A stretch of 64,000 nucleotides of DNA from contig JAIOPO010000001.1 in assembly GCA_021413905.1 (NCBI GenBank), forward strand, positions 9,159 to 73,158, read 5' to 3'. Below, one piece after another: positions 43,758 through 52,148 of the stretch (the stretch's first letter is position 1; the number at the start of each line of letters is the position of its first letter). The notes under the pieces were generated by a model. The model was not told the DNA's origin and searched no databases. It worked only from the letters and a program-made list of their open reading frames with translations. The position numbers were made by a program, and so were the translations under genes. This DNA is from Candidatus Nomurabacteria bacterium (lineage in GTDB: Bacteria; Patescibacteriota; Minisyncoccia; Phycocordibacterales; UBA9973).

Positions 43758-43829
43758 TCGGGAGTAGCTCAGCGGTAGAGCGATCGCCTGTTAAGCGATT
43801 GGTCGTAGGTTCGATCCCTACCTCCCGAG
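43758..43829 (+). tRNA. tRNA-Asn (anticodon GTT)
   Basis: U1:A72 pair, anticodon loop CTGTTAA, GGTTCGATCCC T-arm, discriminator G. Confidence 0.8.
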
Positions 43830-45383
43830 CAATGACTTGTACTTAGGTGAGTTTTCAGTATTAAACACTTGTCCAGCAAGTGTTTTTTGCTGTTCGTAGG
43901 AGTCATTTAGCTTTGGAATCCATTCAAGCAGATATTTGCACGCTAAATTATAATTCGGCTTTATTTCATAAGCATTTTGTGTGAAGTTCGTAAATAATTG
44001 AGAGAACAATAATCTTTTTTCGTCCACTTCTGCTTTGTTGTAAATTTGGCTTGCTTTAAAAGCGAGGTCGTGAATTATTACACGAAGTTCTTGATAGTCG
44101 TCGCTTTTATTTACAACTTTATCGAGAGTAGACTCTAAGGCAGATTCTTCAATTTTACATTCAGCTATTTTTCTTTCACAAAACTCGCGTGGCACTTCTT
44201 TGTTTATTGTCGCTTCAAAGTATTTATCTTTTTCTTTTCTGATTTTTAATAATAGCCCATTTAGTCTTTGAATTTCTGTCTCCCTTTCTTTTATCTGCTC
44301 GGCATTTTCTTCTAAAATAATACTTTCAATCCATTTAAGCACAGCTTCGTTCTTAGGGGCTATATTTAGAAAAACGGGCATTATTTGTTCTTCGACTTTA
44401 TCTTGCCTAACATAGGTCTTTTTAGGGCAATGGCGTGATTTTAAATGGTTATTACAGTGCCCATACCATTTTTCTTTTTGTAATTCCCAACTCAAAACAC
44501 CCCCGCAACCATCGCAGAAAATTTTGCTTTTAAATAGGGAATTGTGTTTAGTTGATAAGTGAGTTTTACCTCTTCTTTTTAAGATGGATTGTGCTTTTTC
44601 AAATAGGTCCTTGCTAATCAATGGTTCGTGTATGGCAGGATATATTTGGCCTTTCCATCTCATTTTTCCATAGTAGAATGGGTCCTGAAGTAATTCGTAA
44701 ATTCTGCTTTGCAAAATCTTTTTTCCATTTCTTGACCTAAGTCCAATTTTATACATTTCATCTTCTAGTCCAGTGAGTGAATAATTTCCCGTAGCGTATA
44801 GTTCAAACATTTTTTTAATATGGGGAGCTGTTTCTTCTTCAATGATATGTATTTTATGTCCTTTGTCCCCGATAGTTTTATATCCAGTGGGTGGTTTTTG
44901 TGGAAGTCCGCCTTGAGCTAATTTTTCTTTTTGTCCTTTACGAACTTCTTCGGAAAGGTTGTTTGTATAGAATCTAGCAATTGCAACTTTCATATCCCAC
45001 ACAAGATTTTCGTGGGCTCTGGTATTTTGACTAACGATAAAATTTTCTTTAACGAAATGGACCTCGTTATTTTTTTCTTCATAAACCCAATCGTTAATTA
45101 TGGATGCATCTTTTAAGTTGCGGGTTAATCGGTCAATTTTTTCTGCCAGTATTAGATTTACTTTGTTTTTCTTAATGAATTGAAGAATCTCATTAAATTT
45201 TTTCCTTGCTTGTTTTCCACTTGCCGATTCTGAAATTTTATAAACTTTTACAACATTAAAGTTATTTTTTACCGCATACTCCGTGAGAAGTTTTTCTTGA
45301 GCATCCAGCGAATACCCTGTGTCTTCTTGTTCTTTACTGGAAACTCTACAAATAATGACTGCTTTTATTGTGTTATTTTTCAT
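43818..45383 (-). CDS. large serine recombinase (phage-type serine integrase); last 4 codons overlap the tRNA-Asn 3' end
   Basis: AVIICRVSSKEQ...SLDAQ catalytic resolvase domain, a recombinase domain, and a C...C zinc-ribbon region. Confidence 0.85.
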   Translation of the reverse strand: MKNNTIKAVIICRVSSKEQEDTGYSLDAQEKLLTEYAVKNNFNVVKVYKISESASGKQARKKFNEILQFIKKNKVNLILAEKIDRLTRNLKDASIINDWVYEEKNNEVHFVKENFIVSQNTRAHENLVWDMKVAIARFYTNNLSEEVRKGQKEKLAQGGLPQKPPTGYKTIGDKGHKIHIIEEETAPHIKKMFELYATGNYSLTGLEDEMYKIGLRSRNGKKILQSRIYELLQDPFYYGKMRWKGQIYPAIHEPLISKDLFEKAQSILKRRGKTHLSTKHNSLFKSKIFCDGCGGVLSWELQKEKWYGHCNNHLKSRHCPKKTYVRQDKVEEQIMPVFLNIAPKNEAVLKWIESIILEENAEQIKERETEIQRLNGLLLKIRKEKDKYFEATINKEVPREFCERKIAECKIEESALESTLDKVVNKSDDYQELRVIIHDLAFKASQIYNKAEVDEKRLLFSQLFTNFTQNAYEIKPNYNLACKYLLEWIPKLNDSYEQQKTLAGQVFNTENSPKYKSLLGR

Positions 45384-45448
45384 ATATTTTTATTTTATTT
45401 TAATTTAATTTCTAATAATTATAACATATACCAATTCAGTTATTTTTT

Positions 45449-45652
45449 TTACCCATCGGGGACATTAGAAGATTCAATTTCTTTTTTGTTTACACGTTGG
45501 TGAATTTTAAATAACGTTAAATAATAATTAGCGACCCCGTTGGCGATTTCTCTAACTTGTTCTTCCGTGAAATTCTCAAAACCAGCACAACCTTTGTGTA
45601 GCTCAACAAATTTATTTATTTGTTCTGGTTTGAGTTCCATTAGTTTAACCAC
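45449..45652 (-). CDS. hypothetical small protein within the element
   Basis: ORF only. Confidence 0.35.
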   Translation of the reverse strand: MVKLMELKPEQINKFVELHKGCAGFENFTEEQVREIANGVANYYLTLFKIHQRVNKKEIESSNVPDG

Positions 45653-46191
45653 GAAGGTTTGTTAGCTCGCATTGCTTGCACGAAAGGCGAGTCCTCTTCT
45701 TTTAAAGAAGAATTTTCTCTTTCTTTATTTGATTTAGTTAGTTGAATTCCCGTATCCTTTTCGGTACTATCTCCCTTACTGTTTAGATACTGTTCATTTT
45801 CCTTTTGGTCATAAGAGTATTCTTTTTTGACCGTATACATTTGGATACTGTCCTTTTTAGTATTTAAAGGGTCCATTAAGAAATATATATTTGGTTGTCT
45901 TTTTTTATTACGAAGAACTAATATCAATCCAAGTTCTTCAATTATTTTTATATATTTACTAACTGTATTTCTTTTTCCAATTCCAGAGAATTTCATTATT
46001 GTTGGGTATGAAGGAAAGCAGGATTGTGTTTTACTATTAGCGTGCCTAGCTAAAGTGCAATAGATGGCTATTCCTGAAGATTTTAACTTCGGTCCGTATT
46101 TTTCTATTATTTCGTTATCAACCCAAAATCGAGTCTTCTTTAAAGAAGGTCTTATGTGTTTTGGTATGACTAAATTATTTGGCAGTTTCAT
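45640..46191 (-). CDS. replication-associated winged-HTH protein (HTH_36 / DnaD-N-like)
   Basis: GIAIYCTLARHANSKTQSCFPSYPTIMKFSGIGKRNTVSKYIKIIEELGLI. Confidence 0.5.
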   Translation of the reverse strand: MKLPNNLVIPKHIRPSLKKTRFWVDNEIIEKYGPKLKSSGIAIYCTLARHANSKTQSCFPSYPTIMKFSGIGKRNTVSKYIKIIEELGLILVLRNKKRQPNIYFLMDPLNTKKDSIQMYTVKKEYSYDQKENEQYLNSKGDSTEKDTGIQLTKSNKERENSSLKEEDSPFVQAMRANKPSWLN

Positions 46192-46226
46192 AATTTTTAT
46201 TCATATAATTTAATATAGGCGAGTCG

Positions 46227-46490
46227 TTAGTTTTTTAATCTGCTTTTAATTTCTCTGATAGCGTTCCAATAATTTTTTGGTTCAACTTGAAGTAAGCCAG
46301 CCCAAAAGTTAGTTATTGTTTTTTCCAGTTCTTTTGTTTTATTAAAAACCATTTTGACTTTCGGGTACTCTTTTGGGTCCCTGTCAAAGGCAATGATGGG
46401 GAAATTTAGAGAAACTAGACAGCTAACTAAGCACATATCACTAAGAGATACTTTTTCTTCTACATTTAGATATTTAAAATCACTATTCAT
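46227..46490 (-). CDS. hypothetical protein within the element
   Basis: ORF only. Confidence 0.35.
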   Translation of the reverse strand: MNSDFKYLNVEEKVSLSDMCLVSCLVSLNFPIIAFDRDPKEYPKVKMVFNKTKELEKTITNFWAGLLQVEPKNYWNAIREIKSRLKN

Positions 46491-46628
46491 TTAATTTAAT
46501 AAAATTATTTTTAATAAATGCCTTCCTTAGACAAAAGGAGGACTCTATATAAAGGCATATGTGGTCATACGACAAAAAATAAAAAAAGCCCTTTGAAAAT
46601 AGGCTTTTTAATAGAAAGAATTTACTTT

Positions 46629-47675
46629 CTATTGGTTTTTTAATTTCGATATTTTATTTTTACTTTGCTCCTCCTTTATTTTACGTATTTGATTAAAATC
46701 TTTAACATTAAAGAGCCACCTTCCTTTTGGCTGAACCCTTGTAAGCTTTATTTTACTTGACCAATACGCAGGTATAAGTCCTTTCTCTCTATACCGTCTT
46801 AATGTTTTATCGCTTATACCAGTGGCATCTGCTGTCTGTTGAGTAAGAAAATATTTTTCCCCGTTTACGTCTTCGATTAAATCGAGAGAATCAGTTTCAT
46901 TTGCCTTGTGTGATGTGGTCGGATAGTTATTATTCTCATTGTTTTCATAATCAAGTATAGCTAAATCATCATCATTATATCCAGAAAATACTTTTTTATT
47001 GTAGCGTATTTTTATATTTATTTCTCTCATTACCTTTTCACGTATATAATAAAAAAGTTTTTGTCCCGAATTTGATTTTTTTGCTAAATTATTAATAGTG
47101 TCCAGTAGGTCTTTTTTTGCATCTGCCGTTGTTTTTATTTTTCTATTTTTTTGTTTCCTCCCTGAATCTCTATAGCCAAGATTCCTTTGTATAAACCAAT
47201 CATTTAAACATAACTGTATTTCTGTTTTTACCAGCAATTTTAAATACTTATCAGAATATTTGGTAAATTTATTATTATCTAGATTTTCTTTTAAAGAAAG
47301 ATATTTTTTTAGTTTTTTTGTTGATGGTGAGACGCTTCCTATCCAAATTTCTGCCAAAAAGTCTAAAAGTAAATCATTGTCTTTTTTAGAAAGATTATAT
47401 TTTTTATATATTGATTTTACTATTTCGCTTGGCTGAGGTTTTTTGTTGTCCCAATTTACAGATGGGAACAATAAATTTGTTGCTATTATTCCATATTTGG
47501 AAACTTTAATTAAAATTTTTTTATTCAGCTTTTTTGCTTTTCTTTTTTCTTTAATCAAGCTCTTTAGACTCTTGATTTTTTTTAGAATAGGTCTAAGAGT
47601 TTTTTTATCAATTAAAGGCAGTCCTAAGTAAAATATTGAATCATCAAAAATAGGAAATTTTTGTTTTTTATTCAT
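46629..47675 (-). CDS. lysine-rich protein with a C-terminal excisionase-family HTH (HTH_17)
   Basis: LTQQTADATGISDKTLRRYREKGLIPAYW...GRWLFNVKDF. Confidence 0.5.
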   Translation of the reverse strand: MNKKQKFPIFDDSIFYLGLPLIDKKTLRPILKKIKSLKSLIKEKRKAKKLNKKILIKVSKYGIIATNLLFPSVNWDNKKPQPSEIVKSIYKKYNLSKKDNDLLLDFLAEIWIGSVSPSTKKLKKYLSLKENLDNNKFTKYSDKYLKLLVKTEIQLCLNDWFIQRNLGYRDSGRKQKNRKIKTTADAKKDLLDTINNLAKKSNSGQKLFYYIREKVMREINIKIRYNKKVFSGYNDDDLAILDYENNENNNYPTTSHKANETDSLDLIEDVNGEKYFLTQQTADATGISDKTLRRYREKGLIPAYWSSKIKLTRVQPKGRWLFNVKDFNQIRKIKEEQSKNKISKLKNQ

Positions 47676-47975
47676 ATAATATAATCTGGGTAACTTACAT
47701 TAGATGTGCATCTAATTGAAACACTAACGATGTATATGTGAACATTGCACTGGCACATTTTACCATTTTATTGTAGACTTAAAAAGTCAATTAAATATGG
47801 ACCTAACCCTTGAATTAACATTTAAGGCACGGTCAACAGTAATCCGCTCAGGAGCATAAAACCCATCATTGGGGTACCTGAGCGGTCGTATTGGGAAACT
47901 GATACGGATGGCGAAAGCTATCACCTAGTGGTGGGCTTTTTGCTACCAATTTTATTAGATTAAGATAAAAAATTT

Positions 47976-48650
47976 ATGGAAGAAAATAAAACATCAGGTT
48001 CAAATCCTGAACAAAAAAATTGGATTAGTCGTCATCCTATGATTACAACAATTATTGTTTTAGGGATGTCTTTAATGATAGGTGGATTAAGTAATCAAGG
48101 AAATAGTATTCAGTCTGATGAAACAAATAATACTTCAATATCTACAACACCTAATATTCAGCCTGACATAAATCTTCCAGAAAAAACCATCACATCTAAA
48201 GTTAAAAATGAATCCGTTTCTACGCAACAATCAATTACTGAAACAAATAATACAATTTATGCTAAAAAATTTTATAACGTTATTTTATTAATTGAGTCTG
48301 GAAATTCAGATGCTCAATCTGGAATATCTGCATTTAGCACTAGCACCCCAGACGCTCTATTTGACTTACGACAAGCTCAAGCAGAGTTTTCTAAAGCACA
48401 GTTAGAAATGCAATCATTGCAAGTTAATGTGCCTGAAAAGTTTATAGATATAAATAGATTAATGAATGAGGCTATAAATAATTACACTTCTGGTATGAAT
48501 ATATTAATTCCAGCCTTGGAAGATGAGAATAATCCTGATTCACTTAATCAAGCTAAAAGTGCTTATACTTATTTTAATAAGGCAGTTATGCTTTTTAGTC
48601 AGGCAGAACTTGCCATAAAGCAATTAAACGCTAAAGAGGGTATTTATTAG
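47976..48650 (+). CDS. hypothetical membrane-anchored protein
   Basis: ORF with a transmembrane helix at residues ~22-40. Confidence 0.4.
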   Translation: MEENKTSGSNPEQKNWISRHPMITTIIVLGMSLMIGGLSNQGNSIQSDETNNTSISTTPNIQPDINLPEKTITSKVKNESVSTQQSITETNNTIYAKKFYNVILLIESGNSDAQSGISAFSTSTPDALFDLRQAQAEFSKAQLEMQSLQVNVPEKFIDINRLMNEAINNYTSGMNILIPALEDENNPDSLNQAKSAYTYFNKAVMLFSQAELAIKQLNAKEGIY

Positions 48651-48669
48651 TAAAAAGTAAATAAGAAAT

Positions 48670-49155
48670 TTATCTTCCAATTCTATTTTTACATCCAAGG
48701 CAATAGTTTCCATACTCTTGAGGAAATTTTCTTTCAAGGTATTTCCAAGCCAAATTAGGGTCCGTCTGAATAGCTCTAGCAACAGTAAGCCTAGCGAGCA
48801 TCCCAAGGTTCAGTTTCCACCCCTGTTTCTGCTCTAAAAACTCAGGATTATTGTGCTGATAGTTATATAGCGTTTGAAGTGAAATACCAGCGAAAACACA
48901 GGCTTCTCGGTCGCTAGCATCTACTAGGTAAGCCATCCTTAGTTTTTGGAGTGTGTCATTTTTCATAACTGTGGGTCTGCCACCCTTTTGACCCTTAGTT
49001 TTCTCTATTACGTTGGCTGGGCGAGGGTTGTGTCTAGGTAAGGTTTTCAAAGCAAGACAACCGTCAAAAGGAAGAGGTAGTTCTTCCATCTCTAGCTCAA
49101 TGGTTTCTTGTGGAAATGCCTCTATTGGGATTGTGTCGAATTCTAATTCTTCCAT
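48670..49155 (-). CDS. phage terminase small-subunit-like HTH protein
   Basis: GGRPT...LQKLRMAYLVDASDREACVFAGISLQTLYNY...AWKYLERKFPQEYG resembles the terminase small-subunit HTH family. Confidence 0.45.
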   Translation of the reverse strand: MEELEFDTIPIEAFPQETIELEMEELPLPFDGCLALKTLPRHNPRPANVIEKTKGQKGGRPTVMKNDTLQKLRMAYLVDASDREACVFAGISLQTLYNYQHNNPEFLEQKQGWKLNLGMLARLTVARAIQTDPNLAWKYLERKFPQEYGNYCLGCKNRIGR

Positions 49156-49193
49156 AGTTATATTATAGTTGTTTTTTAGTTTTTTTATCTTTT

Positions 49194-50129
49194 ATGATTT
49201 ACATTTTTGTAAATTTTAGTAGAATGAAGAACATGGCTTTAATACCCCCACATTATTTAAATTCAGTAGTATCAATTGAGGTAGAAAGGAAAAATGACAA
49301 GGACGAAATACAAAAAGTTTCTATTGCTACTGGTTTTCTTGTAGGTAAACTTACTGGAAAAAGTAATGAAAAAGGACCTTTATATAATCTTTTTCTTGTA
49401 ACGAATAGACATGTTTTTCAAAATGAAAAAACAAATCAACTTTTAAAAGAAGCATTTTTTCGTTTTAATACAACTGACAATAAAGGGCATTACTTTAAGG
49501 TAAATCTTTTAAGAACAGACAACACTCACATATGGTCAATGCACAGTGATGAAAAAGTTGACTTAGCGGTACTGCCAATAAATGCTAAAGCAATTAATGA
49601 TGCAAAAATTAACTATCATTTTTTTTCTGATACTGACTTGTTTTATGCAAGAGATTTTAAGTCAAAAAATATACATACAGGAGACAGCCTGTTTGTTTTA
49701 GGTTTTCCTATGAGTATAAATGGTAAGGCAAAAAATTTTGTTATTGTAAGACAAGGAATAATTGCTCGTGTTGATGAAGAAGTTTTAAATGAACGTTTTT
49801 ACTATATTGATGCTTCAGCATATCCTGGAAACAGTGGAGGACCTGTTATTGTTAAACCAGAAATAGTTTCAATCCAAGGTACAACAAGTAATAATTCAGC
49901 TGGTCTTATTGGGGTTATAAGTTCTGGAGAAACTTATTCTGATGTTGCAGTAAGTAGTCAAACTGGTGAAGCACGAGTAATTTTTACTGAACAGACTGGA
50001 CTTGTTAGGATTGTACCTATTGAACTAATATATGAAATTATTGATACAATTACAAAACCCACAACGTTATTGCAAGAGGCTAAGGTTGAAGATGTTAGTT
50101 CTTCAGCAAAGGAAGAAATAAAAAATTAG
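49194..50129 (+). CDS. trypsin-like (S1) serine peptidase, apparently cytoplasmic (start may be 49224)
   Basis: LVTNRHV (His), a downstream Asp, and PGNSGGPVIV (Ser). No signal peptide. Confidence 0.65.
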   Translation: MIYIFVNFSRMKNMALIPPHYLNSVVSIEVERKNDKDEIQKVSIATGFLVGKLTGKSNEKGPLYNLFLVTNRHVFQNEKTNQLLKEAFFRFNTTDNKGHYFKVNLLRTDNTHIWSMHSDEKVDLAVLPINAKAINDAKINYHFFSDTDLFYARDFKSKNIHTGDSLFVLGFPMSINGKAKNFVIVRQGIIARVDEEVLNERFYYIDASAYPGNSGGPVIVKPEIVSIQGTTSNNSAGLIGVISSGETYSDVAVSSQTGEARVIFTEQTGLVRIVPIELIYEIIDTITKPTTLLQEAKVEDVSSSAKEEIKN

Positions 50130-50172
50130 TATATATATTTATATAGTTTACCATTTATGTTATAATTGCTCC

Positions 50173-50361
50173 ATGAGTGATAGACAACAAACTAGTAATG
50201 GTCAATTTAAAAAGAGACGAGGCGATACTCGTATTGGGACCATTGAAAAAGAATATGGTGTTGACTTTGGGGTGCGTTCTGACACAAAGCTAGCTACTTA
50301 TCTTGAGGAAAATGGGGTCCCTTCTCTTTCTAAGGCATTAAAGAAGTTAAACGACAAATAA
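50173..50361 (+). CDS. hypothetical small protein (translationally coupled to the next gene)
   Basis: 62-aa ORF. Its stop abuts the next start. Confidence 0.35.
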   Translation: MSDRQQTSNGQFKKRRGDTRIGTIEKEYGVDFGVRSDTKLATYLEENGVPSLSKALKKLNDK

Positions 50362-50362
50362 T

Positions 50363-50896
50363 ATGTCTTCGCATAGTCCAGATGTATTACACGCAAACAT
50401 TGAATGGCATATTGAATTGATTGCTATTCAGATTAGTCACGCAAAAAAAGTAAAGGGAAGAGCTAGAAGTGGTTATTACAAAATGGCTACCATTCTTGGA
50501 GCTACTATTGTTGAAGGTCTAGTGCACGCAATTTTACAAAACAAATTAGGAATAGATGGAGTTATATTTACAGGTAAAAAGATATCTTATGATTGTTGTG
50601 AATTACCAAAGAGATTTTCAGAAAAAGAGCAACTTGCTATATGTAAAAGAAAAGATGAAAAAATAGAACTTAAAAAGAATCCAGATTTTGCAGTTCTAAA
50701 TAACACTTGTTTAAAAGAAAGATTATTCTCAAAAGAAGTTTTTAATAGAGTTGAAGATGTGCGTAAAACAAGAAACAAAATTCATATTCAAGGTTTAGAC
50801 CACATTGACCGTAGTTATACAAATAATAATGTTGAAAAAATTGCAAAAACTGTTAATAGACTGGTAGATTTATATAATAGGTCTCATAATAATTAA
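50363..50896 (+). CDS. hypothetical protein with a HEPN-like R-x(4-6)-H motif
   Basis: VEDVRKTRNKIHIQG near the C-terminus. Confidence 0.35.
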   Translation: MSSHSPDVLHANIEWHIELIAIQISHAKKVKGRARSGYYKMATILGATIVEGLVHAILQNKLGIDGVIFTGKKISYDCCELPKRFSEKEQLAICKRKDEKIELKKNPDFAVLNNTCLKERLFSKEVFNRVEDVRKTRNKIHIQGLDHIDRSYTNNNVEKIAKTVNRLVDLYNRSHNN

Positions 50897-50899
50897 TTT

Positions 50900-51643
50900 A
50901 TGCCAAATAAAATTATACAAACTGAAATTGATAAAATTCTCGGTGAATTGGCTTTTTACAATGAACCTGAACTTCTAAAAGAAGAGTATAGGAAGTTTTT
51001 GAAGGTTGGTAAAAATTTTAATAAAGAAAAAAGTAAAAAATATTCTCAGTCATTAGCTAGTATAAATTGGTTTATAAAAAAAGTAGCTAAATATAAAATA
51101 TACTTTTCAGAGTTTTATCCATGTTCAACTGATAATATTCAAAAACATGAGGCTCTAGAACACCATATTCATGCGTATCTGGAAGATATAATTACTGTTA
51201 AAACTAAAACAACTAATTATATTGGTGAACTAAAAAATGACCTCAAGCAAGTTGTTGAAAATAAAAAAGAAATTAGTAACTCCCTTGATTGGCTTAAAGA
51301 ACAAATATATAAAACTTTTGAAGGTATATCAACGCAAAGAGACCAACATAGACATAGAGGTTTTAAGTTTGTAGATGGAGATATAACTAATGCGGAAATG
51401 GCTCACATAATGTTAGGGAAGGATTCTCTTTTCAAGGGTCATTTTACTGATTATGCTATTGAAAAATTTAAGGCACAAAAAGAGGAATCGTTTGAAAAAG
51501 CAAAAAAAAGTTGGTTGGAAAATACTTTAAAAAATTATGACCAAATTGAAGGACTAGCAAATGAAATGGTTAAAAGAACGAAACCATTTTTGTATCAATA
51601 TTTAGACATAGAACCATTAGATACACTATATCAAAGCCATTAA
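50900..51643 (+). CDS. hypothetical protein (last gene of the cargo operon)
   Basis: 247-aa ORF, 4 bp after the previous stop. Followed by a hairpin and T-run at ~51715-51745. Confidence 0.4.
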   Translation: MPNKIIQTEIDKILGELAFYNEPELLKEEYRKFLKVGKNFNKEKSKKYSQSLASINWFIKKVAKYKIYFSEFYPCSTDNIQKHEALEHHIHAYLEDIITVKTKTTNYIGELKNDLKQVVENKKEISNSLDWLKEQIYKTFEGISTQRDQHRHRGFKFVDGDITNAEMAHIMLGKDSLFKGHFTDYAIEKFKAQKEESFEKAKKSWLENTLKNYDQIEGLANEMVKRTKPFLYQYLDIEPLDTLYQSH

Positions 51644-51942
51644 TTGCTTCATTTGTTGCAAAGAAACAGACGGATAAGGAAAAATCTCTTCCCATTTGGT
51701 TGTTCGTAGAGTATACTTCCATTCGAGCCAAGTAGTACAAACGTCGCCGAAAGCGGCGTTTTGTGTTTGTATTGCTGTTTTTGTGAAAGTTAATACCTAT
51801 AATGAGTAAAATATGATAAATAATATAGAAATTACTTATTAGAGTCTAAAGAGGATCTTGCAAAATTTAAAGAATTTGTTTTTTTAAAGATATAAAGCTA
51901 TAATACATATGTATCAATATTATCAAATAATTTTAAAATAAA

Positions 51943-52068
51943 ATGGCAAAAAGAGGAACAACACTAAGTATTAGACCAAAATCAAGACGTTCTCATAAAA
52001 CAAAAAAGAGACTTGCTACCAAGAAAACAATGCTCGCTAGCAAATCTACTGGAAAGAAAAGAGGTTAA
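51943..52068 (+). CDS. rpmH: 50S ribosomal protein bL34
   Basis: MAKRGTTLSIRPKSRRSHKTKKRLATKKTMLASKSTGKKRG aligns to the bL34 consensus (KR.RSHGFR.RMATK.GR.VL..RR.KGRKRL). Confidence 0.6.
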   Translation: MAKRGTTLSIRPKSRRSHKTKKRLATKKTMLASKSTGKKRG

Positions 52069-52087
52069 TATTTAAATATATTTTGTC

Positions 52088-52116
52088 AAAAAAACCCATT
52101 AGTTGGGTTTTTTTGA
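52088..52116 (+). terminator. rho-independent terminator after rpmH
   Basis: aaaaaccca-ttagt-tgggttttttt. Confidence 0.6.
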
Positions 52117-52148
52117 TTTGACTTTACTTTTTACATTTTTAGTGTAAA

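What the first reader, a model, noticed from the sequence alone, without database searches (positions are those of the whole stretch)
49194..51643. Cargo operon of the integrative element: cytoplasmic trypsin-like protease, small protein, protein with a HEPN-like motif, and an unknown 247-aa protein. Candidate defence module.
Four tightly packed co-directional genes lie inside the mobile element; the last three are linked by 2-4 bp gaps (the protease and the small ORF are separated by about 43 bp). The protease has the His/Asp/Ser triad motifs (TNRHV ... GNSGGPV) but no signal peptide. The 177-aa protein ends with RKTRNKIHIQG, an R-x6-H arrangement reminiscent of HEPN RNase motifs. Cytoplasmic proteases coupled to HEPN or effector proteins are recurrent in anti-phage systems carried by satellites and islands. 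None of the four proteins resembles a housekeeping enzyme.
Basis: inference. Interest (0 to 1): 0.55.

Follow-up and report, generated by a model that had tools for sequence, protein, structure and literature searches.

The report
Mosaic defence cargo with HEPN pair
The four genes are real, but they are three unrelated accessory modules parked side by side at the end of a small mobile element, not one system. The core is a two-gene unit found in dozens of Patescibacteria loci: a small basic protein plus a previously unclassified HEPN-type (probable RNase) protein.

Summary
All four ORFs exist at the stated coordinates and each has conserved homologues. The window comes from a Candidatus Nomurabacteria (Patescibacteria) contig.

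They are not one conserved operon. In 46 other loci the 62-aa and 177-aa genes are always adjacent (gap -4 to +20 nt). The protease and the 247-aa gene never accompany them.

The 177-aa protein is a new HEPN-superfamily family. Its AF2 model (pLDDT 90) has the HEPN topology, and Foldseek's best PDB hits are HEPN toxins, though with weak E-values. Sixteen of 97 relatives weakly hit Pfam HEPN-type families. E51, R137, N138 and H141 are invariant. The invariant motif is RNxxH (Rx3H), nested in a mostly conserved Rx6H, so it is non-canonical.

The pair looks like a toxin-antitoxin or abortive-infection module. It lies inside or next to restriction-modification (RM) operons, near mobile-element genes, or between housekeeping genes. 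The small partner is basic and better conserved than the HEPN protein, which is atypical for an antitoxin.

The protease matches PADLOC PDC-S45, an untested candidate. Elsewhere it follows helicase or restriction genes. The 247-aa protein is an all-alpha orphan with an RxxHxH motif, seen once between a type I RM system and GmrSD.

Verdict: defence-island-like cargo and a new member of a known kind. No function was tested.

The parts
49198..49225 (+). Promoter-like site (TTTACA-16-TAGAAT). It ends 7 nt before the consensus protease start.
   Evidence: 10 of 12 consensus positions. The number of such sites in the region is no higher than in shuffles, so this is weak evidence.
49233..50129 (+). 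Trypsin-like serine protease without a signal peptide, module 1. The listed ORF starts at 49194, but the homologue consensus starts at 49233. The triad is H73, D123 and S214 in ORF numbering.
   Evidence: Pfam Trypsin_2 1.2e-14. PADLOC PDC-S45 7.8e-26. phrog_7688 2.8e-27. 764 homologues, the best 120 at 59-80% identity. Invariant residues.
50138..50166 (+). Promoter-like site with an extended -10 (TTTATA-17-TG-n-TATAAT). It ends 6 nt before the ATG of the small ORF, so the pair may have an internal promoter and a leaderless transcript.
   Evidence: Similar -10 boxes lie 6-7 nt before the ATG in L001 and L005.
50173..50361 (+). 62-aa basic protein (pI 9.6), the conserved upstream partner of the HEPN-like gene, module 2a. 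It belongs to an orphan family with consensus FRKKRxDTxIGxIEKxYxVDFGVRxDxKLGTYLxxxGLPSLSKAL.
   Evidence: It lies immediately upstream of the 177-aa homologue in 46 loci. No Pfam, PHROG, NCBIfam, PADLOC or PDB-sequence match.
50363..50896 (+). 177-aa protein of the HEPN superfamily, module 2b. Helix 1 spans residues 6-29. Helix 2 spans 32-62 and carries invariant E51. A beta-hairpin and short-helix insert spans 67-118. Helix 3 spans 124-143 and ends in R134..R137-N138..H141. Helix 4 spans 154-176.
   Evidence: AF2 pLDDT 90.4. Foldseek PDB top hits are HEPN toxins. Invariant residues. Pfam HEPN-type hits in 16 of 97 relatives. 404 cluster representatives in the profile search.
50900..51643 (+). 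247-aa all-alpha orphan protein, module 3. R147 and H150 are invariant and H152 is at least 90% conserved (RxxHxH), at the end of a long helix. A second motif is EALEHHIHAYLED (residues 84-96).
   Evidence: 61 homologues. Alignment A2. AF2 pLDDT 94.4. Foldseek against PDB and BFVD gave only generic helical bundles. Contexts.
51739..51761 (+). Terminator-like hairpin (9-bp stem, 5 G-C pairs, T-rich tail), 96 nt after the 247-aa gene.
43758..45383 (.). Left end of the carrying element. tRNA-Asn (43758-43830, +) overlaps the stop of a large serine recombinase gene (43818-45383, -).

Best explanation
The 2.45-kb stretch is a patchwork of three independent accessory modules. They have accumulated at the distal end of an integrative element of about 8 kb that sits next to tRNA-Asn in a Candidatus Nomurabacteria genome.

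Module 1 is a cytoplasmic trypsin-like protease of the PADLOC PDC-S45 candidate family.

Module 2 is the only multi-gene unit: the 62-aa basic protein and the 177-aa protein. They are tightly spaced, which suggests translational coupling, and they appear to have their own promoter. The 177-aa protein is a new family of the HEPN superfamily. It most likely acts as a metal-independent endoribonuclease whose active site is built from E51 in helix 2 and R137-N138-x-x-H141 at the end of helix 3. The small protein is inferred to bind it and control it, as an antitoxin or regulator. When that control is lost, for example on phage infection or loss of the element, RNA is cleaved and growth or phage replication stops. 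This is toxin-antitoxin or abortive-infection logic.

Module 3 is a stand-alone all-alpha protein with a conserved RxxHxH motif. It is possibly another HEPN-like effector.

Shown: gene structure, conservation of the pair, independence of the modules, the predicted HEPN-like fold, topology and invariant residues, and the genomic contexts. Inferred: RNase activity, toxicity, neutralisation by the small protein, and any anti-phage role.
For: Pair conservation:
- The small ORF lies directly upstream of the 177-aa homologue in 46 loci, with gaps of -4 to +20 nt apart from one disrupted copy.
- No other neighbouring gene family is shared by more than 4 loci.
- The protease and the 247-aa gene are absent from all of these loci.

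HEPN assignment:
- The AF2 model has pLDDT 90.4 and pTM 0.81.
- By my count of the descriptions, about 31 of the top 50 Foldseek PDB hits are HEPN proteins, including HepT 6m6w (prob 0.99, TMt 0.66), 7ae6, 2hsb, 5yep, 1ylm, 1jog, 1wol, AbiV and Csm6.
- E51, R137, N138 and H141 are invariant across 97 diverse representatives. RN..H is present in 128 of 131.
- Pfam hits among the 97 relatives: HEPN_RiboL-PSP 8 (best 1.7e-6), DUF4145 5 (best 1.3e-4), HEPN 2, HepT-like 1.

Context typical of toxin-antitoxin or Abi genes:
- In L041/L042 the pair lies between an N6_Mtase/HSDR_N_2 gene and an HsdS-like gene.
- In L060 it lies next to an MTase and IceA. In L002 it lies next to an MTase, a PDDEXK gene, ParE/Phd and Fic.
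- In L046 and L009 it lies near recombinase or replication-gene homologues.
- In L001 it is wedged between grpE and dnaK.

Other support:
- A promoter-like site lies directly before the small ORF.
- HEPN genes are known components of toxin-antitoxin, Abi and RM-embedded systems (PMC3710099).
- Protease: PDC-S45 at 7.8e-26. Homologues follow an SLFN-type helicase, follow a ResIII/RE gene with an MTase, or stand alone.
- 247-aa homologue: between hsdR and a GmrSD-family gene in L011.
Against: - No Foldseek hit reaches E <= 0.001 (best 0.12). The window protein itself and the A1 and A3 profiles hit no HEPN family or PDB sequence.
- The invariant R-to-H spacing is 3, outside the published Rx4-6H range. 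The Rx6H arginine (R134) is replaced in 12% of relatives.
- The small partner does not look like a typical antitoxin. It is basic (family median pI about 10), has no recognisable DNA-binding domain, and is more conserved than the putative toxin in 41 of 43 loci (61% against 43.5% mean identity).
- Several loci lie between housekeeping genes, with no defence neighbours.
- The pair was not found in IMG/VR viral contigs. The 177-aa protein, and one distant relative (P0191), found nothing in cultured phage genomes, and that relative found nothing in plasmids.
- No activity, toxicity or interaction was tested.
- No terminator-like site was called between the protease gene and the small ORF. In this genome all four genes may therefore be co-transcribed, so a local functional link cannot be excluded.
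Confidence: 0.6

Rival explanations
1. One reading: one four-gene anti-phage system. A cytoplasmic protease senses infection or activates an effector, and works together with the small protein, the HEPN-like protein and the 247-aa protein.
For: All four genes are co-directional and tightly packed. A terminator-like site was called only after the fourth gene. Each component family occurs in defence-type neighbourhoods elsewhere. The protease matches a PADLOC candidate.
Against: None of the 46 other pair-bearing loci has a protease or 247-aa homologue within the available flanks of up to 5-10 kb. In the five loci examined for protease homologues and the four for 247-aa homologues (several are copies of one arrangement), none has the pair. 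PDC-S45 hit as a single profile, with no partner gene among the PADLOC hits. A promoter-like site lies between the protease gene and the small ORF.
Confidence: 0.06
2. The pair is a conflict system, but the small protein is not an antitoxin. It would be a positive partner: a nucleic-acid-binding adaptor or infection sensor that recruits or activates the HEPN RNase. The two would form a two-subunit effector.
For: The small protein is basic and far better conserved than the HEPN partner (41 of 43 loci). That suggests it contacts a conserved target rather than co-evolving with a fast-changing toxin. Both proteins are basic, so charge-based neutralisation is unlikely. On contig L061 the two ORFs share one frame, separated only by two TAG codons, and a gene caller read them as one 252-aa protein.
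Against: The small-gene-first order with 4-nt overlaps is the classic antitoxin-toxin layout. The apparent fusion depends on an unproven TAG recoding. The small protein has no detectable nucleic-acid-binding domain.
Confidence: 0.2
3. The pair is not a defence or toxin module. It would be an accessory RNA-binding, RNA-processing or regulatory factor of Patescibacteria, with the HEPN-like fold used non-destructively as in MtlR or sacsin.
For: Some loci lie between housekeeping genes: grpE-dnaK, cysS, and ftsEX with pspC. The R-to-H spacing is non-canonical. The small partner is highly conserved. Non-catalytic HEPN domains are known (PMC3710099).
Against: Conservation of the pair with no fixed neighbours, together with its placement inside RM operons and near mobile-element genes, is typical of selfish or defence modules. 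Non-catalytic HEPN domains usually lose the R/H motif (PMC3710099), whereas here E, R, N and H are invariant.
Confidence: 0.12

Closest known systems
HEPN-toxin two-gene modules with a protein partner (HepT-MntA / HEPN-MNT; RnlA-RnlB and LsoA-LsoB)
   Same: Both are two-gene units with a HEPN-fold protein carrying conserved R and H residues at the end of helix 3. The best structural matches of the 177-aa model are HepT/HEPN toxins 6m6w, 7ae6, 7bxo and 5yep. The small partner gene is adjacent and tightly coupled.
   Different: The partner is neither a nucleotidyltransferase (MNT) nor RnlB-like. It is a 54-74-aa basic orphan protein. The motif is RNxxH rather than RX4H(XY), and no tyrosine follows the histidine. 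A beta-hairpin insert lies between helices 2 and 3. There is no significant sequence similarity to these toxins.
RM-embedded HEPN Abi genes (PrrC in the hsdMSR prr locus; ApeA, AbiU2 and DUF4145-type HEPN genes), as catalogued in PMC3710099
   Same: In L041/L042, and with an HsdS-like gene directly downstream in L027 and L033, the pair is nested in a type I-like RM gene cluster. Some relatives weakly match DUF4145 and RiboL-PSP-HEPN.
   Different: There is no fused ABC-ATPase as in PrrC and RloC. The association with RM is occasional, not obligatory. An obligatory small partner gene is present.
PADLOC PDC-S45 (an untested phage defence candidate predicted by 'guilt by embedding', bioRxiv 10.1101/2024.01.29.577857)
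   Same: The protease matches the PDC-S45 profile over residues 9-250 at E 7.8e-26. Its homologues sit directly after helicase or restriction genes.
   Different: PDC systems are predictions without experimental support. The Patescibacteria proteins form their own tightly conserved clade at 59-80% identity.

Membership tests
HEPN superfamily (177-aa protein) | [quoted passage not shown] | tested here: met
   The AF2 model (pLDDT 90.4) has helices 6-29, 32-62, 124-143 and 154-176, with a beta-hairpin and short-helix insert at 67-118. By my count about 31 of the top 50 Foldseek PDB hits are HEPN proteins, with TMt up to 0.66 and prob up to 0.99, but E-values are only 0.1-3.
HEPN superfamily (177-aa protein) | Rx4-6H motif at the end of helix 3 | tested here: inconclusive
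   The position is right, at the C-terminal end of helix 124-143. The invariant pair R137/H141 has spacing 3 (RNxxH). R134/H141 gives Rx6H, but R134 is conserved in only 113 of 128 relatives.
HEPN superfamily (177-aa protein) | Polar residue (N, D or H) immediately after the conserved arginine | tested here: met
   N138 is invariant in 97 diverse representatives.
HEPN superfamily (177-aa protein) | Second conserved acidic residue in helix 2, typically within Ex3[KR] | tested here: met
   E51 is invariant and lies in helix 32-62. Its local context is Ex3H or Ex3L rather than Ex3[KR].
HEPN superfamily (177-aa protein) | Significant profile match to a described HEPN family | tested here: inconclusive
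   The window protein and its 34 closest relatives have no HEPN hit. Among 97 wider relatives, HEPN_RiboL-PSP matches 8 (best 1.7e-6), DUF4145 matches 5 (best 1.3e-4), HEPN matches 2 and HepT-like matches 1. Profile searches against PDB sequences found nothing.
HEPN superfamily (177-aa protein) | Metal-independent endoribonuclease activity | not testable with these tools
   This needs biochemistry.
Type II-like toxin-antitoxin module (62-aa + 177-aa) | Conserved two-gene operon with a small upstream gene tightly coupled to the toxin gene, moving as a unit between contexts | tested here: met
   46 loci have gaps of -4 to +20 nt, and no other neighbouring gene family is shared by more than 4 loci.
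Type II-like toxin-antitoxin module (62-aa + 177-aa) | The antitoxin has a recognisable DNA-binding or neutralising domain and evolves at least as fast as the toxin | tested here: not met
   No domain was detected. The small protein is basic and more conserved than its partner in 41 of 43 loci.
Type II-like toxin-antitoxin module (62-aa + 177-aa) | Toxicity of the toxin alone and rescue by the antitoxin | not testable with these tools
   This needs expression experiments.
PADLOC PDC-S45 (protease) | Match to the PDC-S45 profile | tested here: met
   E 7.8e-26, residues 9-250 against profile positions 9-242 of 293. The family itself is an untested candidate.
HEPN superfamily (247-aa protein) | Rx4-6H motif with a polar residue after R, at the end of a core helix | tested here: inconclusive
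   R147 is invariant, H152 is at least 90% conserved (Rx4H) and H150 is invariant. The residue after R is mostly N or D in the rows shown. The motif ends helix 122-153.
HEPN superfamily (247-aa protein) | HEPN fold or profile match | tested here: not met
   Foldseek against PDB and BFVD returned only generic helical bundles (PA28, alpha-pore-forming toxins, designed proteins). One of 58 members hit HEPN_LA2681 at 0.0037. hhalign against the 177-aa family gave probability below 1%.
Known multi-gene defence systems (PADLOC-DB v2) | Any of the four proteins, beyond the protease, matches a component model | tested here: not met
   There were no hits for the 62-aa and 177-aa proteins. The 247-aa protein had only a ZorA hit at E 0.0011 in a coiled-coil-like stretch.

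The most novel reading that the evidence does not exclude
The 62-aa/177-aa pair may be a lineage-specific immune or conflict module of Patescibacteria that works differently from known HEPN toxin-antitoxin systems. It would have a HEPN variant with a shortened RNxxH catalytic motif. Its highly conserved basic partner would be a target-recognition or sensing subunit, perhaps binding a conserved RNA or ribosomal component, rather than an antitoxin. The adjacent 247-aa protein (RxxHxH) would be a second, structurally divergent RNase-type effector.
Probability: 0.2. Interest if true: 0.6.

Novelty: new member of a known kind. Interest (0 to 1): 0.4.

Why it matters
Patescibacteria (CPR) have tiny genomes, and their defence repertoire is poorly charted because standard tools recognise few of their genes.

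This work defines a two-gene HEPN-type module that Pfam, NCBIfam, PHROGs and PADLOC all miss. The HEPN-like partner has 404 clusters at 50% identity, and the pair was confirmed in 46 loci, some of them inside RM operons or near mobile-element genes. It gives annotators a concrete family with clear diagnostic residues (E51 and RNxxH).

The motif variant (Rx3H nested in Rx6H) and the unusually conserved basic partner are testable departures from textbook HEPN toxin-antitoxin pairs.

The result also warns against reading tight co-directional packing on a mobile element as evidence for a single system.

Tried and rejected
- Direct repeats or a second copy of the tRNA-Asn 3' end, to fix the right boundary of the element: none found. 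This is expected for a serine recombinase, and the boundary stays approximate (51.65-51.95 kb).
- Sequence searches of the 177-aa and 247-aa proteins and their profiles against PDB sequences: only noise.
- Foldseek of the 247-aa model against PDB and BFVD: non-specific.
- hhalign of the 177-aa family against the 247-aa family: it aligns the two R..H..G..D stretches but is not significant, so common ancestry was rejected as unproven.
- Apparent fusion protein P0216 (small domain plus HEPN-like domain): it rests on reading two in-frame TAG codons as sense on a 1.3-kb contig, so it was not used as evidence.
- Scans of cultured phages, plasmids and IMG/VR for the modules: nothing, apart from two weak Staphylococcus phage hits for the protease.
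- Two guesses at which relatives carry the Pfam HEPN hits (20 proteins): these found only weak HEPN and DUF4145 matches.
- Cluster look-up for taxon names of distant relatives: no names.
- The 41-aa basic ORF at 51943-52068 looked like ribosomal protein L34 by eye, but Pfam gave no hit, so no claim is made.
- Rfam and tandem-repeat scans found no RNA antitoxin-like element in 49.1-51.7 kb.
Full report
**Observation.** ORF listing confirms four co-directional genes at 49194-50129, 50173-50361, 50363-50896 and 50900-51643, with gaps of 43, 1 and 3 nt. The window belongs to a Candidatus Nomurabacteria (Patescibacteria) contig of 274 kb, according to the source name of the identical database proteins. 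The surrounding element is real. tRNA-Asn (43758-43830) overlaps the stop of a large serine recombinase with Resolvase, Recombinase and Zn_ribbon_recom domains. This is followed by an HTH_36 replication-initiator-like gene, an HTH_17 gene and an ORF matching PHROG small terminase phrog_4102 at 3.3e-16. The protease most likely starts at M14 (ATG 49233), because 25 homologues begin MALIPP. And the RKTRNKIHIQG stretch is residues 134-144 of 177, not the C-terminus.

**The four genes are not one conserved system.** The 177-aa protein has 35 close homologues, and the named ones are all Patescibacteria. I collected loci from exact look-ups, a genome-collection scan and a metagenome scan. In 46 of them tblastn finds a homologue of the 62-aa protein immediately upstream of the 177-aa homologue, with a gap of -4 to +20 nt in all but one disrupted copy. 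None contains a homologue of the protease or the 247-aa protein within the available flanks. An all-against-all comparison of neighbouring ORFs found no other gene family shared by more than four loci.

The protease family is large: 764 hits, the best 120 at 59-80% identity. Its members sit after an SLFN-type helicase (L053-L055), after a ResIII/RE gene with an MTase (L056), or alone (L057). Homologues of the 247-aa protein sit between hsdR of a type I RM system and a GmrSD-family gene (L011), beside NUDIX genes (L012/L013), or among housekeeping genes (L062). A promoter-like site with an extended -10 (TTTATA-17-TGnTATAAT, 50138-50166) ends 6 nt before the ATG of the small ORF. A terminator-like site within the block was called only after the fourth gene. 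The local block may therefore be co-transcribed, but evolutionarily it is a mosaic of three modules.

**The 177-aa protein is HEPN-like.** No profile library recognises it directly. An AF2 model built on 35 sequences is confident (pLDDT 90.4, pTM 0.81). It shows helices 6-29, 32-62, 124-143 and 154-176, with a beta-hairpin and short helix inserted at 67-118. Foldseek against the PDB gives no hit below E 0.1. However, by my count of the descriptions, about 31 of the top 50 hits are HEPN proteins. They include HEPN/MNT toxins 7ae6, 7ae8 and 7ae9, HepT 6m6w, 6m6u and 7bxo (prob up to 0.99, TMt up to 0.66), 5yep, 2hsb, 1ylm, 1wwp, 1wol, 1jog, MtlR, AbiV, Csm6 and sacsin HEPN.

The published description of the fold matches the model point for point. 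[quoted passage not shown] A profile search of 1.84 billion representatives found 404 clusters. Across 97 diverse members the only invariant residues are E51, R137, N138 and H141, and RN..H occurs in 128 of 131 full-length representatives. When the 97 members were scanned one by one, the most frequent Pfam hits were HEPN_RiboL-PSP (8 members, best 1.7e-6), DUF4145 (5, best 1.3e-4), HEPN (2) and HepT-like (1).

I therefore assign the family to the HEPN superfamily with good but not decisive support. The motif is non-canonical. The invariant spacing is Rx3H.

**The small partner.** The 62-aa protein defines an orphan family with no Pfam or PDB-sequence match. It is basic (pI 9.6, family median about 10), as is the HEPN-like protein (pI 9.5). 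It is more conserved than its partner in 41 of 43 loci, at mean identity 61% against 43.5%. The gene order and the 4-nt overlaps are classic antitoxin-toxin features. The charge and the conservation pattern are not. An apparent natural fusion (P0216) turned out to depend on reading two in-frame TAG codons as sense, and I do not rely on it.

**Contexts of the pair.** In L041/L042 it lies between a 677-aa HSDR_N_2/N6_Mtase/Eco57I gene and a 459-aa HsdS-like gene, all tightly packed. An HsdS-like gene also follows it directly in L027 and L033. In L060 it follows an N6_N4 MTase, IceA and a weak GIY-YIG-like gene. In L002/L003 it lies in a region with an MTase, a PDDEXK gene, ParE/Phd, Fic and Bro-N. 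In L046 and L009 it lies near homologues of this element's recombinase and replication gene. In L001, L059 and L019 it lies between housekeeping genes. This scatter, with only the pair itself conserved, is what mobile toxin-antitoxin or Abi modules look like. HEPN genes embedded in RM operons are an established theme (PMC3710099).

**The other two genes.** The protease has the invariant triad H73, D123 and S214. It matches PADLOC PDC-S45 (7.8e-26) and phrog_7688 (2.8e-27). PDC entries are 145 untested candidates predicted by 'guilt by embedding' (bioRxiv 10.1101/2024.01.29.577857). The 247-aa protein gives a very confident all-alpha model (pLDDT 94.4). It has invariant R147 and H150, H152 at 90% or more, and an EALEHHIHAYLED helix. 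Fold searches return only generic helical bundles, and hhalign against the 177-aa family is not significant. Its RxxHxH motif at the end of a helix, with N or D usually after the arginine, resembles a HEPN motif, but membership is not supported.

**Mechanism, with steps marked.** Shown: the pair is a conserved, mobile, tightly coupled two-gene unit, and the larger protein has a predicted HEPN-like fold with an invariant E plus RNxxH constellation at the expected site. Inferred: it is an endoribonuclease that the small protein holds in check or directs, and releasing it arrests growth or phage replication. My confidence in this toxin-antitoxin/Abi-type reading is about 0.6. The main alternative, at about 0.2, is that the small protein is a positive adaptor or sensor rather than an antitoxin. 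Non-defence RNA-binding roles are less likely (about 0.12) and a true four-gene system less likely still (about 0.06).

**Novelty and verdict.** The noteworthy item is a previously unclassified HEPN family with an obligatory small basic partner, widespread in Patescibacteria. It is a new member of a known kind. It has two unusual traits, the motif spacing and the partner's conservation, that are worth an experiment.

Noticed in passing
window 47800-47922 (+): A full-length match to Rfam LOOT RNA (RF03000): 79 bits against a gathering score of 46.4, E 5e-14. It lies inside the integrative element, between the HTH_17 gene and ORF 47976-48650.
   Followed up: no
window 43758-51800: The carrying element is about 8 kb. 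It has a large serine recombinase abutting tRNA-Asn, a replication-initiator-like HTH_36 protein, an HTH_17/excisionase-like protein and an ORF (48670-49155, -) matching PHROG small terminase at 3.3e-16. This looks like a phage-satellite-type element in a Patescibacteria genome. No att repeat was found.
   Followed up: partly
L061 381-1139: On a 1.3-kb contig the small-protein ORF and the HEPN-like ORF lie in one frame, separated by two TAG codons. A gene caller read these as Gln, giving a 252-aa 'fusion' (P0216). Under the standard code the HEPN part lacks an obvious start. This could be a TAG-recoded genome or an artefact.
   Followed up: partly
window 49198-49233 and 50138-50173; L001 and L005 upstream of the small ORF: -10-like hexamers end only 6-7 nt before the ATG of both the protease and the small ORF, and of the small ORF in two other loci. 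This hints at leaderless transcripts. The promoter count in the region is not above shuffles.
   Followed up: no
L053-L056: Close homologues of the protease sit 7-13 nt downstream of an SLFN-g3-type helicase (followed by a Peptidase_S49 gene), or of an 891-aa ResIII/RE_endonuc gene with an N6_N4 MTase upstream. The family is unusually well conserved across Patescibacteria: the best 120 hits are 59-80% identical.
   Followed up: partly
L011 1689-10655: A homologue of the 247-aa protein lies between a complete type I RM system (hsdM, hsdS, hsdR) and a GmrSD_N (DUF262-type) gene, with a 64-aa ORF directly after it. Short ORFs of 54-79 aa also follow the homologue in L012 and L013. Whether these short ORFs are related was not checked.
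   Followed up: no
L007/L022 2160-2678 and L045 4520-5000: Some copies of the HEPN-like gene appear interrupted: a 131-aa ORF although tblastn aligns 176 columns, and a split alignment in L045. These may be decayed copies or assembly errors.
   Followed up: no
window 51943-52068 (+): A 41-aa, very basic ORF with its own terminator-like hairpin (52085-52117). By eye it resembles ribosomal protein L34, but Pfam gave no hit. It may mark the return to host genes.
   Followed up: partly
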